A DNA stretch of 64,000 bases from Carcharhinus longimanus (Eukaryota): positions 80,014,784-80,078,783 of the forward strand of contig JASCQW010000132.1 in the NCBI GenBank assembly GCA_030264375.1, given 5' to 3'. This document shows, piece by piece, positions 871-58,810 of the stretch. How positions within the stretch are numbered: position 1 is the stretch's first letter; every line of letters starts with the position of its first letter. The notes below the pieces were generated by a model. That model did no database searches and was not told the origin of the DNA. It saw only the letters and a program-made list of their open reading frames with translations. The translations under genes and the position numbers were made by a program.

Positions 871-1789
871 GTCGATGGCTGTATAAGTGCTAAGTACATT
901 ATAAAGACAAGCTGCTTTTATATAGGATTAAGGGGGGTGCTGATGATTGCAGCTCCCGGCATGCTGCTGTCATGCAAGAAAACTCGCCAAAGTTGACTAA
1001 AGCTGGCGACTGGGAAAACATGAATTTTCTGCTGGGGTTGCCACACACATCAGGATCTTACAGCACCAGCAGAGGCATCTGGCATTAGAAAATCAGCTAT
1101 AAGCAGATTGATTTTTAAAGGTTTTGAAAGTATAGCTGCTCTCACTCAAGCTTTAAGAAAAACCTTTTCAATTTACCAGCCAAAAGCAGAGCTCTCTCTC
1201 CCTAACTAAGAGTATATTATGTTGACAGTTGAAAATTAAAATTCAATTGAGATCTAGAGCTTGGTTGTAGTCTCAGATATAAAGGCAAAAACTTGAACTG
1301 CAAACATCCAAATGTTTGACTCTTTTTTCCTTTATAAAGTCCTAAACAATCTTCCTGTGATAGTTCCACTTGTTTTTGCAATTGCTCCACGACTACCACT
1401 AGGCTGTGCTCTTAAACCAGTAACATGCAACTGATACATTTTTGTGAATCACGAACCAGTTGATTCAGACTATACATACTGGCCAGCAGAGAGGCACTGT
1501 TACATCAATTTTCAGTTCACTGGCAATGATATTACTGGCGTTTCTGCATATTTAAGGGGTTATTTTAGTGAAAAGATAAAAACAGGTGCTGTGTACTGTG
1601 CCTGTTCAAAAGTTTTGGTTGAGCAAACGATGTTAAACCTCATTGCCGATTCGCTAAAGGCGCTGAAATACATACCTGCAAATTTATCCCTCAAGCTCTG
1701 GTGAGAAGCATCAGTCACAGAGCTGTAATACATGCACACTCCCACTGAAGGTATCGAATACACAGCTTGACAAACAACAGCAGATTTCA

Positions 1790-1925
1790 AGATGACTCAA
1801 GGACTGAGGGGGAGGGCATGAAGTTCTCAGATGCAGCAGTGCAGTCTCCAGTGAACGAGGTCGGGAAGTGGGGGCCGGGGGGGCGGTGCGGGGGATGCCC
1901 TGTATCCACAGCGGGAAGGAGCCCA
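1790..1925 (+). mobile_element. Harbinger Myb/SANT-like ORF remnant
   Basis: KFSDAAVQSPVNEVGK...DALYPQ resembles the Harbinger DNA-binding protein motif RFSDAALEALVEEV..RRDVLYP. Confidence 0.5.
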
Positions 1926-1982
1926 CTTTGCACTCTGTAGTCCTGTACCTCTGTCCTGGTGTTGTCAGGCTTTTTACTATGT

Positions 1983-2070
1983 AAGTCCCACAACACCAGG
2001 TTAAAGTCCAACCAGTTTATTTGATAGTAAACCCACAAGCTTTCAGGGTTTGCCCCTTTATCAGGTGAGT
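1983..2070. mobile_element. Short dispersed repeat (Penelope-associated terminus), copy 1
   Basis: CACAACACCAGGTTAAAGTCCAA.CAGTTTATTTGAT.GTAA.CCCACAAGCTTT shared with 52545-52615; family assignment from recall. Confidence 0.6.
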
Positions 2071-2674
2071 TTCCTATTGCAGCTGATGCTGCTCGGTCTG
2101 CCCTCATGTCCTCCACCATTTCTTCTCCAGATCAACAGGGTGCCCACCGAATAAGATGACCTCAACCTTTCTCCATTAAAGGTTTTTTTAAAATAAGTCA
2201 AGCTATGAGAATCCTGTTTTAACACAGTCACAGAAAAGACAATCACCACAGAAGCCATCAGAGAATTTCCAGAATAATCATCACTTGAGTGTCAGTGATA
2301 TCTTGACAAAGTCTCCCAAGAAGGTCTATCAAACCTCCAGCAGCAGATGAACAGCGAAAGCTGAGAATGGCTACACTTGAAATTCTCACAAATGATTTTC
2401 TTTTTCACCTCGACGTAGCTGCTTGCTGCCACAAAAAGGTATTAATTGAAGAATTAGCCACAAATTTTTGTGCAGCATCTTTAATGAGCGCTAGTGAAGG
2501 AACAATTTTCCTTTAATGATACTCTGGGCAGTCATTCCTAATGCACATTAATTCTTTTACCAAGATCATATCTTATGTTAAGTGTGGTTTGAGAACTAGC
2601 ATTGCAGTTCAAGACCCCTTCCTGGAAGCTCGTTAGTACCAAAAGAAGCTGGGCAAAATCGCCCACTCAAGTTA

Positions 2675-2980
2675 ACATAGAAATATAAAAGATAGGAGCA
2701 GGAGGAGGCCATTTGGCCCTTCAAGCCTGCTCTGCCATTNNNNNNNNNNNNNNNNNNNNNNNNNNNNNNNNNNNNNNNNNNNNNNNNNNNNNNNNNNNNN
2801 NNNNNNNNNNNNNNNNNNNNNNNNNNNNNNNNNNNNNNNAAAAAGAACAAAGAAAATTACAGCACAGGAACAGACCCTTTGGCCCTCCCCAGGCCTGCAC
2901 GACCATGCTGCCCGATTGAACTAAAACCCTCTACCTTTTCGGGGACCGTATCCCTCTATTCCCATCCTATTCACGCACAT
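2675..2980 (-). mobile_element. Two CR1-like LINE 3' tails either side of a 100-N gap
   Basis: 2675-2739 matches the tail at about 3525-3590; 2840-2980 matches the family at 8108 and 63530. Confidence 0.8.
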
Positions 2981-3102
2981 CTGATGGATGTGCGAGTGTG
3001 TACACATGCACGTGTACACGTGCACCAGTGTTTTTTTTCTTGCGCTTAGTAAAATGCAGCTGAAAGCAGTACTTTTTGATGACACATATTCTTCTTTTCT
3101 AG

Positions 3103-3337
3103 CTGGAGGTTCAGTCATGTTGTGTATTCTTTCCAAATGAGAGCCTCGCCTCGCCAAGCACGATCGTGGCGGGTGACATCCCGGGGACGGTGAGGAATTG
3201 GTATCATACCGAAGCGAGTATGCCGGGGACTTTGGTCGTCTGCTTACCTCAGATAAAAGTGATCAGTGCAGGACACAAATACATGGAACCACTGCAGGAG
3301 ATTCCTTTTGTCATTTCAAGGCCTATTCTAGAAGAAG
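3103..3337 (+). CDS. vps13b: Isolated internal coding exon of VPS13B (COH1), 235 nt
   Basis: Acceptor TTCTTCTTTTCTAG|, donor GAAG|GTATGT; open frame LEVQSCCVFFPNESLASPSTIVAGDIPGTVRNWYHTEASMPGTLVVCLPQIKVISAGHKYMEPLQEIPFVISRPILEE(G), closely matching human VPS13B LEVQSCCVFIPNDSLPSPSTIVSGDIPGTVRSWYHGQTSMPGTLVLCLPQIKIISAGHKYMEPLQEIPFVIPRPILEEG as recalled. No other VPS13B exon recognised in the window. Confidence 0.88.
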
Positions 3338-3516
3338 GTATGTTCCATCTGGTGTTTTGGCTCCTGTTCTCCTGGTCAGTTTCTTTTCTCCCCTTAGTAC
3401 TGAATTTACAAAGTTTTGGGGATTGCACTACTTTAATGTTAATGCACAATTTCTTTCATTGATTCCAGTTACTGAATTAACTTTTAATTTAACTTTTGTC
3501 ATTATCTTTACATAAA

Positions 3517-3876
3517 AACATAGACATAGAAACATAGAAGATAGGTGCAGGAGGAGGCCATTTGGCCCTTCAAGCCTGCTCTGCCATTCATCATGATCAT
3601 GGCAGGTTGTCCAACTCAAGAATCTAATCCTGCTTTCTCCCTATAACCTTTGATCCCATTCGCCCCATGTGCTATATCCAACCGCCTCTTGAATACATTC
3701 AATGTCTTGGCATCAACTTCTTCCTGTGGTAGTAAATTCCACAGGCTCACCACTCTTTGGGTGAAGAGATGTCTCCTCAAATCCGTCCTAAATGGTCTAT
3801 CCAGAATCCTCAGGCTGTGACCCCTGGTTCTGAATTCCCTTACCATCAAGAACATACTCCCTGCATCTACCCTGCC
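3517..3876 (-). mobile_element. CR1 3' end
   Basis: RTRGHSLRI..RPFRTDLRRHLFTQRVVSLWNLLPQE..FKRRLDI and an (ACATAGAA)n tail. Confidence 0.9.
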
Positions 3877-4424
3877 TTAAATTATTTAACTTAAGATGTT
3901 TCAGTGCTCTAGAGGATAATTAAACTTTTGGTGATAATGTAAAACGTGTGTTATAGGACTCACCACTTATAACATTCCCGATTCTAATTTCTATTAGCGG
4001 GGTTTATAACAAGTGACTGATCAAATATTAGCTGGTGTGATTATTGCTAAATGATTTTTAAAAAACCCTTCAAATGTAGCAATTGTTTTACAACAAACAT
4101 TTGCTGAAAACCCCTTTATTTGAATAAGATACTTAAGGACTAACTTTTATTTTGAATAAAATGTTATTGCTGTTTAGTTTGAAATACAATCTGCAATAGT
4201 GACATCTCAGTTGAATGACCACGGGGCAACAAATAGCCCAATATTTTGCAGAATCAAAGTGTATAACATTTTTAAGAATTAGTAATTTCTTNNNNNNNNN
4301 NATGTGAGAAATGAGTAGTTGGCCAAAAATTAAATTTAAATAAATATTTCCATTAACATTTAGCCATTAAGCCATTTTGCTTCTTTTAAGTGTGAGCATT
4401 ACTGTAATTTGTCACAATTCTTGT

Positions 4425-4610
4425 ATATAGAAACATTGAAAATAGAGCCATTTGGCCCTTCGAGCCTGCACCACCATTCCACATGTTCATGCACTTTCAA
4501 TATCTCACTCACGCTTTCCTCACCCCTTGATCCCTTTAGTCTCAAGAACCATGTCCAGCTCCTCTTGGATATATCTAACGAACTAGCCCAACAGCTTTCT
4601 GTGCTGGAGA
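4425..4610 (-). mobile_element. Degenerate CR1 3' tail
   Basis: GCCATTTGGCCCTTCGAGCCTGC tail motif. Confidence 0.6.
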
Positions 4611-5504
4611 ATGTTTTATGCTGGAAAAGAACAGCAACATTTTACGTTTTGGGAGTTCAGTTGTTAATATTAAGTATTCAGTTATTAATATTAAGTATTC
4701 CCAGCTCAAGTGAAATGCAAGTTCAGCTCGTTGTGCACCAGCCAGAAGCCCTATTGTAGAAATTTGACCTTTTCCATTTACCAACCAGTTATCCTACAGC
4801 ATCCTGCAACAAAATTCTGAATTTAGCATCAAGTAGAGCTGATCTAAGGATAGCATTCTCTTTTGAATAGATAAAATAATCAATAAATTAAATTAATGAG
4901 AGGGGGTGACAGCCCCTGGTGGGACACTAAAACAAAAATCAAAACTTTGAAAGGAAGCTTAACATATCAAATTAAAATTGTGTTATGAGGGCTGAATGTG
5001 CACTTTAGTGCCAGTGGTGTCCACCAGTCACAGAAGGCCTCAAGCATACCAGTGGACACAGCATGCTCCCACTGCAGGGTCACCGAATCTAAGGGTCGTA
5101 TCTGTCATAGAGATTGTTATTCAGCAAATTGGAAACTTTCCTCCCATTAAGCAGAGTCAGATTTGAACCTGGGACATAGAATTTAATGGAAAATGTTGAA
5201 TCTATATTTCTGAGATATGAATAAAGACATACAACAGAGTTTCAACTCCCTTCATCTGACAAAAATCAGGAATTAAAATGAGAGCTGTATTCTTCCCTAC
5301 TTCCTGAGTCTTTATCCTCTGTTTCTGTCATTCTAAGTGGCTGTCTCAGCTGGCCATCTCATTCAAAGCTGAGACCTCCCAGCTTTTTAACAGTTTTAAT
5401 GTGCAATTTTACTCATCAACACCTTGGTCCGGCCCTAGTGGGCTGCCTTATTGCAAAAGGAAACCAGTATATTCCACAAAGGTGTAAAAGAGAAGAAAAT
5501 AATG

Positions 5505-36499: not shown

Positions 36500-38716
36500 A
36501 ATTTATAGACAATGAATGTTCAGCATTATTTTTGTTTTATTATGGCAGCAATTCCCCGCTGAAAGTGTGTGTTTTATTCTGTCAATCCATATTCCAAGAC
36601 TCTTCCCACTGCTAATTGGAGTTGCACTTTGCAATAGGATCCTACTTAGATTGCAAGAATTCGTGCAGAATTTAGCTCGTTTCATTTTACGCATTTCTTT
36701 GCAATTGTACATTACGAACTTGTAAAATAAAGGGGTACAGCAATGATCAAGAGTAACAAAAGTGGAGTTGAAGAGACAATTGGATTTTTCCAAAAGCTTT
36801 TTCCCGTCTTAAAATAAAACATTCAGTTATCTTTTTTTTTGTAAAATTATACCTAAAATAGCGTTGACCGTTGAAGTTTGCTGTACATATATTATTTTAT
36901 TTTGGTACACACATTTCATATACAATTAATTCCATGTCTGTGCCGAGATACAAAGAAAATGTATTAAGTACAAGCGAGGGACAGTTTCTCTCCAATGGAG
37001 AGAACTTCACACTTCAAAAGTGCACAGAAGACGATAGAGTTCAAAAACTATAGTACTCGTTGCGTCTTTCCAGTTGTCTATAACGCTGCGTTACTCGAAT
37101 AGGTGCACCTCATTGTATTTTTACAAGTTTGTTATCATAAAGTGGTCTGTTTAAAGGTCATATACTATATTTCCAGTTTATAAGAAAGTTTAAATACTTT
37201 TCTATTTAAAAAAAAACAAATACACGTAGACAACAGGTCAGATCTACTCCAGGATTTATTCTATAATTTGGGGTCTGCTGCAAACCCACTTGTTACGAAA
37301 TAAATGCGAATTGTGCCTTGAAACTATCTGACTGCCAGTATATGCAAATAAGTAGATACATGCTTCATTAAATAAAATAAAAAGCCATTCAACATTTACC
37401 AAACATCCCCTTGCTTCATTCTATAAGTTTTTTTTTCACAATTCCAAAAATAAAAAGAAAACAAGTTCTCGAAGTGCGCACTGGATACACCTCAAGGTCT
37501 ATTAAGTTCGGAAAATCGCAATGAATTCCTCAGCGACATGTCACTGTAACTTTCTTGACAACAACCGAAAGAAAAGCCCCCTTAAATTTACCCTTATATA
37601 TGTTCAAATATTTTTTTCAGAAGAATTTACAGGAAAATACTATACAAATCGTCTCCTGGACAAATAACGTCTCGCACCTACATACTGGTGGAGTAATTAT
37701 TTAATAATTAACTATTGTTAATCATGACCCCAGTTTTACAAAGCCTTGCAGATATTTTACAAAGTTGATCTCCTTCCCATTCTCACTCTACACAGCGCCG
37801 TCCATCGTGTTTAAAATCAATTCGTCACTTTATTATTGTTGGACAACGAAAAGAATAAGTACCTTAATATACATGTTGAAATACTTGTCGAAGGATTTAC
37901 AGGCGAAAAATACTATACATACAAATCGTCTCCTGCCCAAGCAGAATTTGCACTGGTAGCTACAAGTGATGCAACTTCTTTCAGGTAGTTAAGGACAAAA
38001 AAAAGAGGGGAAATCGAATCGTCTTGTGAATCTGCTCCTATTGTGCGTTTTATCGGGTTGAAGGTATGTGAGATTAGACAGCTTACTTTGCCTGCATGCA
38101 AGAGTGGATTTGCTGAGATTATTTTTTAAAAAGAAACCAAACGAATTACCGATTTTGCAGAGATGGGAAGGCACACTGCATTGTGTGTGTGTGAACCCAA
38201 CAAAAGGGTTTGTAATCCAGCCGATTGAAAATAAAATTGAAAAGGGTTAAAAAAAAACTGATGAAAATACTTCTCTAAACTGGATTGCAACGGGTGGGAA
38301 GGTTGGCTCACAGTTTGATGAGAGTGAATTGGAATAACAAGAAAAGCTATTTCTACCTGAAGGGACACATCAGACAATTTCAGATGGAATTTAAGTAAGT
38401 TCGATTTTTTTTTGTCCTCAACTATCTAGTCTATCCTAGCAAAGCGGGTGCGTTTTCTGTTGATTTTTCTTTTAATAAAGCTCCCCCTTTTAATTTCTTT
38501 ACTTACACGTAAATCTCTCTTTAAANNNNNNNNNNNNNNNNNNNNNNNNNNNNNNNNNNNNNNNNNNNNNNNNNNNNNNNNNNNNNNNNNNNNNNNNNNN
38601 NNNNNNNNNNNNNNNNNNNNNNNNNTTTTATTTTCTTTAGTTACACGTAAATATCTCTTTAAAGTTTGAACAATACTTTTTGCTCTTGGTGCTGCCTCCT
38701 GAAAGCGTCTCCTTAT
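36500..38716 (-). other. sp8: Sp8 3' UTR (putative) with candidate poly(A) signals
   Basis: AT-rich, TE-free sequence after the stop codon; minus-strand AATAAA at 36896-36901 and 36536-36541, the latter followed by a GT-rich tract. True end unknown. Confidence 0.55.
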
Positions 38717-40095
38717 TCACTCCAGGCCGTTGTTGTGGCCGTTGAGGGCGGCTGCCGAGCCGCCTTGGGCTGCTGCCTGCAGCAGGTCCGGGGAGTGGCA
38801 GCGCGGGGAGCCGGGGTTGCTGTGTTCGCTGTCGGTGTCGCTGCCTTTCTTGCTGCCGCCGGCTCCTCCGCCGCCGGCTCCTCCGCCGCCCACTCCGCCG
38901 CCGCCCCCCAGGCCGGCCGCCTGGTGGGTCTTGACGTGCTTGCTGAGGTGGTCGCTCCGCATGAAGCGCTTGTTGCAGACCGGGCAGGCGAAGCGCTTCT
39001 CGCCGGTGTGGGTGCGGAGATGGCGCTGCAGCTCGTCCGAGCGGGTGAAGCGCTTGCCGCAGAAGAGCCAGTTGCAGACGAAAGGTCTCTCGCCCGTGTG
39101 CCAGCGCAGGTGAGCCTTCAGGTGAGACGTCTTACCGTACACCTTGCCGCAGCCCGGGATGTGGCAACTGTGCAGCCCTTTCCTCCGCAGGCTGGCNNNN
39201 NNNNNNAATTGGGGCAGTCGCAGGTCGCCCGTCCCGAGTAACGCCTGGCCGAGGAGCGGGGAGATCCGCCCAGGGCGGCCGGGCTACCCAGCATGGAGTT
39301 GGCAGCAGCCAGAGGGGAAGGAGCCGAGTCCTGGTAGGAAGGGGGTAAGACGGGCTTGAAGCCATCCTGGGCAATGAGGTGCTGGCTGCTGCTCAGGAGG
39401 TGCGAGGATGCCCCGTTGATGCCGGCTGTGCTGAAAGCCGAGTGGCTGAGACCCGAATAGTCCGAGTTGTAGGCGCCCAGAGGGGAGTGCAGCGAGGACT
39501 GCAACCCGCTCGAGTGTAAGGAGGATGGGAGGGCCCCGTTGGGGTTCTGCACGTCAATCCAACCCGTTGTCCCCGGGTGGACGTCCCACCAAGTCGATGC
39601 GCTGCTCCCCACGTCCCCTGCTATCCCGGGATGGGACGGTTTGAACCAGGACTCGTACGGGTGTGCCATGCCAACCCGGGGGTAGATGCCCTGCAGGCTG
39701 TTTTGCAGCGTGTCCACTGTGGTATGAACTTTGGAGATGAAGACGGGCTGGGCAGCGTCCTGGGAGCTGCTGGAGACCGGGGACTGAAAGACCGAGTACT
39801 CGTTGCCAAAGGGCGAGGTGGAAGAGGTGTTGGAGGTGAGCGAGAAAGCGCTGCTGCCCGATGAACAGTTCACACTGAACGAGTCTGACAGTCCTGCCCC
39901 GTTCCTGGAGCCGGAGACCCCGAAGCCGGAAAGGCTGGAGCCGCTGTTGCAACTGGAGACGGATCTTTTCCAAGGATGGAATCCTTTTCCAAAGGCCGTG
40001 TTGTCCGACAGGGAGGGAGACGGGCTGGGGCTGCCGATTTTATTGCATGTAGCAGCCAACATTGCCAAGGGAGTTGCTCCTAGTCTCGGTTCTTC
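38717..40095 (-). CDS. sp8: Transcription factor Sp8, main (last) coding exon: Sp box, buttonhead box, three C2H2 zinc fingers
   Basis: Acceptor CTTTGCAG| then [27 protein letters not shown]...[10 protein letters not shown], ...[13 protein letters not shown] (btd box), [84 protein letters not shown]-terminal [22 protein letters not shown]. The SPSPSP and NGLE ends match Sp8 rather than Sp7/Sp9. Split into two ORFs only by the N gap at 39197-39206. Confidence 0.97.
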
Positions 40096-50379: not shown

Positions 50380-50810
50380 TTCATAGAATCCTTACAGTAT
50401 AGAACGAGGTCATCCTGTCCATTGAGTCTGTACTCACCACAATCCCTCCCAGGGATATTCACATATATGTACTCACATATNNNNNNNNNNNNNNNNNNNN
50501 NNNNNNNNNNNNNNNNNNNNNNNNNNNNNNNNNNNNNNNNNNNNNNNNNNNNNNNNNNNNNNNNNNNNNNNNNNNNNNNNGTACTCACCACAATCCCTCC
50601 CAGGCTTTATTCCTGTAAACCCACATATTTACCCTGCTAATCCCCTGACATTGGATCAATTTATCATGGCCAATCAACAATACCTGCACATCTTTGGACT
50701 GTGGGAGAAAATCCAAGCATCTGGAGGAAACCCATGCAGACACGAGAATTGAACCTGGGTCCTTGGTACTGTGTGGCAACAATGCTAACCACTGTGCCAC
50801 CGTGTCACCC
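50380..50810 (-). mobile_element. HE1-type SINE spanning a gap
   Basis: Head GGTGGCACAGTGGTTAGCATTG (minus), core, tail; GTACTCACCACAATCCCTCCCAGG present on both sides of the gap. Confidence 0.85.
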
Positions 50811-58589: not shown

Positions 58590-58810
58590 GGGTCATTAAT
58601 TCTGAACTCTGTTCTGTCTCCACAGATGCTGCCTGACCTGCTGAGTATTACCNNNNNNNNNNNNNNNNNNNNNNNNNNNNNNNNNNNNNNNNNNNNNNNN
58701 NNNNNNNNNNNNNNNNNNNNNNNNNNNNNNNNNNNNNNNNNNNNNNNNNNNNTGTCTCCACAGATGCTGCCTGACCTGCTGAGTATTACCAACATTTTCT
58801 GTTTTTTCTA
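58590..58810. mobile_element. Penelope-type terminal repeat flanking a gap
   Basis: TGTCTCCACAGATGCTGCCTGACCTGCTGAGTATTACC on both sides of the N run. Confidence 0.6.

What the first reader, a model, noticed from the sequence alone, without database searches (positions are those of the whole stretch)
2840..3516. Orphan, intact VPS13B exon beside Sp8, boxed in by LINE tails
Seen: a 235-nt exon with an open frame and canonical AG/GT sites, with only ~120 bp and ~180 bp of non-LINE flank. No other VPS13B exon is recognisable in the remaining 60 kb. The CR1 tail left of the gap (2675-2739) is near-identical to the tail at ~3525-3590, and TTAA flanks the outer ends (2672-2675, 3877-3880), as if one CR1 insertion had foreign sequence placed in its middle. 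Known: in human, VPS13B (8q) is not a neighbour of SP8 (7p, near ABCB5/ITGB8 and SP4). Inference: most likely a repeat-mediated misjoin; alternatives are a LINE-associated exon duplication/transduction, or Sp8 nested antisense in a very large VPS13B intron.
Basis: partly seen in the sequence, partly recalled or inferred. Interest (0 to 1): 0.7.

Follow-up and report, generated by a model that had tools for sequence, protein, structure and literature searches.

The report
Misassembled VPS13B exon beside Sp8
This is a genuine exon of the shark gene VPS13B, the one piece missing from that gene on another scaffold, and it was most likely pasted next to Sp8 by an assembly error in repeated DNA rather than moved there in the animal.

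Summary
In detail: 3103-3337 is an intact 235-nt VPS13B exon (75 of 78 residues identical to catshark VPS13B), about 35 kb from Sp8, boxed in by repeat tails. The exon and its flanks occur once in the assembly. The rest of VPS13B that I searched lies in order on another scaffold, C61 (26 of 28 and 22 of 24 matches), and lacks exactly this exon; the splice phases of its C61 neighbours fit it. In that intron a 1,826-N run is preceded by 51 bases identical to window 2842-2892. A 43-base word from them occurs only there and in the window, though its first 24 bases occur 7,213 times. So about 2840-3547 belongs in the C61 N-run and was most likely misjoined through a LINE-tail word with 51 exact copies. 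Nesting of Sp8 in VPS13B and LINE transduction are rejected. No read spans either junction, and the N-run could hide a second copy, so a recent real duplication keeps about 4%. An earlier scan note (unchecked) reports a similar misjoin elsewhere in this genome.

The parts
2675..2739 (-). 3' tail of a LINE copy native to the Sp8 locus, cut off by the N-run; inferred to continue into 3589-3877
   Evidence: contigs of two other samples run from the unique left flank into this tail (records 10 and 18, 2022-2703)
2740..2839 (.). 100-N run, read as a placeholder of arbitrary length
2840..2973 (-). Short copy of a second high-copy repeat; 2842-2892 is identical to the last 51 bases before the 1,826-N run in the VPS13B intron on C61
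   Evidence: 43-base word 2 times in G000, its first 24 bases 7,213 times
2974..3102 (+). VPS13B intron end with pyrimidine tract and AG acceptor
   Evidence: single match in G000 (query 2981-3516)
3103..3337 (+). Internal VPS13B coding exon (phase 0 in, phase 1 out), residues 1076-1153 of catshark VPS13B P0002
   Evidence: Pfam VPS13_N only weakly, E 0.012, below cut-off
3338..3523 (+). VPS13B intron start with GT donor
   Evidence: one contig per run covers about 2946-3545 in 4 of 4 runs
3524..3588 (-). LINE tail; inferred site of the false join. 3524-3546 carries the exon-side variants, and 3547-3588 is a 42-base word also written at 2698-2739
   Evidence: the word has 51 exact copies in G000
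3589..3877 (-). 5'-truncated LINE body, inferred to be the continuation of the tail at 2675-2739
   Evidence: Nearest other copies 86-89% identical; 3805-3880 is joined to the unique sequence from 3881 on in 4 of 4 runs
38717..40089 (-). Sp8 main coding exon (context only), broken by a 10-N run at 39197-39206

Best explanation
The exon is the one internal VPS13B exon absent from the gene on scaffold C61, and it was most likely placed beside Sp8 by an assembly misjoin. Shown: it is single in the assembly, it fits the C61 slot in order and phase, and its contig starts with the 51 bases that end the C61 contig before a 1,826-N run. Inferred mechanism: the roughly 600 bases of unique DNA are boxed in by two high-copy repeats, so a short-read graph broke on both sides. 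At the right-hand LINE tail the path crossed, through a 42-base word shared by about 50 loci, into the body of a sister LINE copy at the Sp8 locus. The piece 2840 to about 3547 was thus prepended to the Sp8-side contig, leaving a hole in VPS13B and a 100-N placeholder where 2739 should run on into 3589.
For: (1) One match in G000 for 2981-3516. (2) With P0004, 26 of 28 matches are collinear on C61:7.72-8.34 Mb; with P0035, 22 of 24 are on C61 up to 8.47 Mb. The other two in each search are the window exon and a processed pseudogene. (3) The 50 kb around the slot holds the exons before and after but nothing above chance for this exon. (4) Phases fit: the upstream exon ends in phase 0 and the downstream exon starts in phase 1. 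(5) 51-base exact overlap with the left edge of the 1,826-N run; the 43-base word occurs 2 times in 2.68 Gb against 7,213 for the family's first 24 bases. (6) The size fits: 631 bases (2893-3523) plus about 760 for the LINE whose RT piece forms the right edge (750, 767 and 769 in the 3 of 24 relatives with a clean tail match) leaves about 435, within the 360-677 measured for 24 copies of the 3524 subfamily. (7) Three other runs (X2, X3, X6) each show one contig over the exon, at 0.91-1.18 times the depth of 4 flanking contigs. All three carry the LINE end at 3805-3880 joined to the right flank, and X2 and X3 also carry the tail at 2675 joined to the left flank. So the Sp8-side LINE is older than any extra exon copy. 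(8) 100-N runs in this assembly often have flanks written twice, by 24-51 bases.
Against: No contig laid spans either junction; all break inside the repeats, so the direct join 2739 to 3589 is inferred. The 42-base word is not unique to this pair (51 copies), so the right-hand junction is not pinned as the left one is. In X1, which shows no differences from the window in its long contigs, the exon contig has depth 9.5 against 5.2, 5.2, 6.9 and 8.6 (ratio 1.43 to the weighted mean, 1.11 to the highest), which does not separate one copy from two. The C61 N-run may be an assembly gap or withheld letters, and could hide a second copy. The RT piece right of the N-run is not of the same subfamily as the tail at 3524, so my first, simpler model (one LINE filling the rest, about 1,410 bases) failed and a second element had to be assumed. 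VPS13B beyond about residue 2000 was not searched, and searches used a stricter first look.
Confidence: 0.93

Rival explanations
1. Recent real duplication private to this lineage: ectopic recombination between sister LINE tails copied about 0.75 kb of VPS13B into the LINE near Sp8; the assembler collapsed the two identical copies, wrote one here and left the source as Ns.
For: X1 exon depth is 1.43 times the weighted mean of four flanking contigs. A collapsed duplicate would also give one copy plus an N-run at the source. The N-run cannot be read.
Against: The left end would need a second, non-homologous junction exactly where the C61 contig ends (51-base overlap). X2, X3 and X6 show one contig at single-copy depth. 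No second variant of the exon is listed in any run (tables cut). X1 depth is only 1.11 times its highest flank.
Confidence: 0.04
2. LINE 3' transduction: a source LINE in the VPS13B intron was read through into the exon (antisense) up to the next repeat tail, and the copy was inserted near Sp8 with a TTAA target duplication.
For: On the minus strand the order is 5'-truncated LINE, unique DNA, repeat tail, as a transduction would give. TTAA stands at both outer ends.
Against: The LINE 5' end at 3805-3880 is joined to the right flank in three other runs that differ from the window by about 1.5-4% and show only one exon copy, so the insertion is older than any copy. The model leaves the extra tail at 2675-2739 unexplained. 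The source locus lacks the exon in readable sequence. The TTAA match is only 4 bases.
Confidence: 0.015
3. Sp8 lies nested, antisense, in a giant VPS13B intron.
For: Only the orientation (exon plus, Sp8 minus).
Against: Exons on both sides of this one are on C61 (124 Mb), 43.6 kb apart, while the window is at 80 Mb on C132 (145 Mb).
Confidence: 0.005

Closest known systems
False gene loss by fragmentation in short-read assemblies ('Fragmented' class, exons split on different scaffolds; PMC9516821, passages read)
   Same: One exon of an otherwise collinear gene sits on another scaffold, next to repeats and N-runs, leaving a hole in the gene.
   Different: Here the piece is embedded 80 Mb into another chromosome-scale scaffold rather than left on a small one, and the overlap with its true slot can still be read.
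VPS13B (Cohen-syndrome gene; bridge-like lipid transfer protein)
   Same: 75 of 78 residues identical to catshark VPS13B; splice phases fit the neighbouring exons.
   Different: Nothing in the exon itself; only its assembled position.
3' transduction by non-LTR retrotransposons (PMC8232201, passages read)
   Same: Unique DNA lies 3' of a 5'-truncated LINE on the LINE's strand.
   Different: No second copy, no convincing target duplication, and the LINE is shared with relatives that show one exon copy.

Membership tests
VPS13B exon | Protein homology to VPS13B | tested here: met
   Named top hits are VPS13B at 94-96%
VPS13B exon | Fits the gap in exon order and splice phase of the genomic gene | tested here: met
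VPS13B exon | Spliced to its neighbours in RNA of this species | not tested
   No RNA was laid; relatives' database proteins P0001, P0002 and P0004 contain it in line with the neighbouring exons
Assembly misplacement (fragmented gene) | Single copy in the assembly and absent from the home locus | tested here: met
   9 N-runs (7,342 bases) in the intron cannot be read
Assembly misplacement (fragmented gene) | Contig end overlaps a gap edge at the home locus | tested here: met
   51 identical bases; 43-base word 2 times in the genome
Assembly misplacement (fragmented gene) | Junctions fall in high-copy repeats | tested here: met
Assembly misplacement (fragmented gene) | Spanning reads contradict the assembled join | not testable with these tools
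   All 22 listed runs are held as contigs; in the 4 laid they break in the repeats
LINE 3' transduction | Source locus keeps its copy (two copies) | tested here: inconclusive
   One copy in readable sequence and single-copy depth in 3 of 4 runs, but the source slot is Ns and X1 depth is ambiguous
LINE 3' transduction | LINE and transduced DNA arrive together | tested here: not met
   The LINE end at 3805-3880 is present in X2, X3 and X6, which show one exon copy
LINE 3' transduction | Target-site duplication around the whole insert | tested here: inconclusive
   Only TTAA, 4 bases; it fits a plain 5'-truncated LINE equally well
Nested gene (Sp8 in a VPS13B intron) | Host exons on both sides of the nested gene on the same scaffold | tested here: not met
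CR1 clade of LINEs | RT phylogeny or library match to CR1 rather than L2 | not tested
   RT-like frames seen; clade name is recalled

The most novel reading that the evidence does not exclude
A very recent, lineage-private ectopic copy of a VPS13B exon was captured inside a LINE near Sp8 by recombination between sister LINE tails, and the assembly collapsed it with its source.
Probability: 0.04. Interest if true: 0.4.

Novelty: not a real feature. Interest (0 to 1): 0.07.

Why it matters
It matters only for curation. The VPS13B model in this assembly lacks a 235-nt exon, and skipping it shifts the frame (phase 0 to phase 1), so the gene could be called broken or lost. The stray exon could also be read as false VPS13B-Sp8 linkage. 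Other orphan exons between repeat tails and 100-N runs in this assembly deserve the same suspicion.

Tried and rejected
Laying four runs (X1, X2, X3, X6; 4 of 22 listed) on 1500-5000 gave no contig across either junction. A wider depth baseline for X1 was not obtained, so the copy-number argument rests on four flanking contigs per run, and contig depth is a poor measure. No RNA holder was listed on record; this says nothing about expression. PDB sequence search with the exon: 0 hits. The model of a single LINE filling the rest of the C61 N-run was rejected: expected about 1,410 against 1,826, and the RT edge belongs to another subfamily. The idea that the 42-base shared tail word is copy-specific was rejected (51 copies), although 0 of the 24 nearest body copies carry it exactly. 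TTAA as proof of one insertion: too short to count. Literature searches (listings only, except passages of PMC9516821 and PMC8232201) listed nothing whose title or abstract start concerns this locus; no supplements were read. Earlier findings near this place: 0. No relatives' genomes are held for G000.

Full report
Observation. The sequence shows a 235-nt exon at 3103-3337 with AG before and GT after it and an open frame. A protein search returned 114 hits among 128 candidates; the best are whale shark (94%) and catshark (96%) VPS13B, 75 of 78 residues against catshark residues 1076-1153. Pfam gave only a weak VPS13_N match (E 0.012). The large ORF at 39.2-40.1 kb is Sp8, about 35 kb away. The tails at 2675-2739 and 3524-3588 agree at 62 of 65 bases, and TTAA stands at both outer ends. 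No other VPS13B similarity was found in the window or 20 kb upstream, using two proteins that cover residues 1-1999.

Where the gene is. The window is G000:C132:80,014,784-80,078,783. DNA 2981-3516 has one match in the assembly, itself. A 1,411-residue cartilaginous-fish-like VPS13B (P0004) gave 28 matches: 26 in order on C61:7,715,854-8,340,485, the window exon, and one at C132:6.96 Mb. A 1,999-residue horse VPS13B gave 24 matches: 22 on C61 up to 8,469,753, and the same two others. Both searches used a stricter first look, so these counts are floors, and the C-terminal half of the protein was not searched. On C61 the matches jump from P0004 residue 1069 (ending 8,222,929) to about 1141 (starting 8,266,580). 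A permissive tblastn of the 50 kb around this slot found nothing above chance for the stretch between. The upstream exon ends in phase 0 and the downstream one begins in phase 1, the phases of the window exon. This refutes the nested-gene reading.

The exact slot. The intron holds nine N-runs (7,342 bases). The contig left of the 1,826-N run (C61:8,248,943-8,250,768) ends with 51 bases identical to window 2842-2892, that is, the first bases after the window's 100-N run. This is a repeat, so I counted: its first 24 bases occur 7,213 times, but the 43-base word that includes this copy's own variants occurs exactly twice, at C61:8,248,900 and in the window. The two pieces are the same repeat copy.

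The right-hand side. The contig right of the N-run starts with 188 bases of antisense LINE RT. My first model was that the tail at 3524 runs on into this RT, which needs about 1,410 bases. It failed: relatives of the RT piece match the 3524 tail at only 73-79% where they match it in the same direction, and relatives of 3589-3880 hardly match the RT piece. With two elements the size fits: 631 bases of window sequence, about 760 for the RT element (750, 767 and 769 in 3 of 24 relatives), and about 435 left over, against 360-677 for 24 copies of the 3524 subfamily (a sample chosen by likeness). This is a fit, not a proof. One irregular N-run could be checked against another copy and was near true size (165 against 162); 100-N runs were not (about -154 to +263, often with flanks written twice). 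The 42 bases at 3547-3588 are also written at 2698-2739. The word has 51 exact copies in the genome: it is a crossing point for an assembly graph, not a unique tie, but two of 51 copies lying 849 bases apart across a placeholder is what writing one copy twice would give.

Independent sequencing. 22 runs hold part of the stretch, all as contigs; 4 were laid. Each has one contig over about 2946-3545 that stops in the repeats, so none spans a junction. In X2 and X3 the unique left flank runs into the tail at 2675. In all four the LINE end at 3805-3880 runs into the unique right flank, in three of them across the 10-N run at 4292. Exon depth relative to four flanking contigs is 1.43 (X1), 1.18 (X2), 0.91 (X3) and 0.92 (X6). 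So relatives have the Sp8-side LINE and one copy of the exon, which argues against transduction, where LINE and passenger arrive together (PMC8232201, passages). X1 has no differences from the window in its long contigs, and its ratio is ambiguous; contig depth is a poor measure of copy number.

Mechanism. Shown: identity of the exon, single copy in readable sequence, absence from and fit to the C61 slot, and the 51-base overlap. Inferred: that the assembler crossed from the VPS13B-intron LINE tail into the sister LINE at the Sp8 locus inside 3547-3588, that 2739 truly continues into 3589 as one 5'-truncated element of about 355 bases with a possible TTAA duplication, and that scaffolding then closed the inconsistency with 100 Ns. 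I cannot tell whether the C61 N-run is an assembly gap or withheld letters. If it hides a copy, the window piece is a false or real duplicate rather than a moved piece; the coincidence of its left edge with the start of the window contig favours a gap.

Comparison and verdict. This is the 'fragmented gene' class of false gene loss described for short-read assemblies (PMC9516821, passages). Searches of the paper library (listings) showed nothing on this locus. An earlier, unchecked note on this genome mentions a piece of an unrelated gene wrongly assembled elsewhere (e1-8573952). Verdict: assembly artefact, confidence 0.93; interest 0.07.

Noticed in passing
L006:1551-1833 (G000:C132 about 6,961,060-6,961,345, minus strand): Processed pseudogene of the VPS13B 5' end: two C61 exons about 6 kb apart are joined without an intron, 85-86% identical, with a stop and a frameshift. 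It is 73 Mb from the window and unrelated to the orphan exon.
   Followed up: partly
window 39197-39206: A 10-N run inside the Sp8 coding region shifts the frame just before the zinc fingers; probably a placeholder, not a real lesion.
   Followed up: no
window 38526-38625, 50481-50580, 58653-58752: 100-N runs whose flanks are written twice (38-51 bases), so small false duplications.
   Followed up: partly
window 2974-3023: Short inverted repeat and alternating purine-pyrimidine tract in the intron upstream of the exon; no function tested.
   Followed up: no
G000:C61:8,260,723-8,264,871: A further 4,149-N run in the same VPS13B intron; its content may likewise sit elsewhere in the assembly.
   Followed up: no
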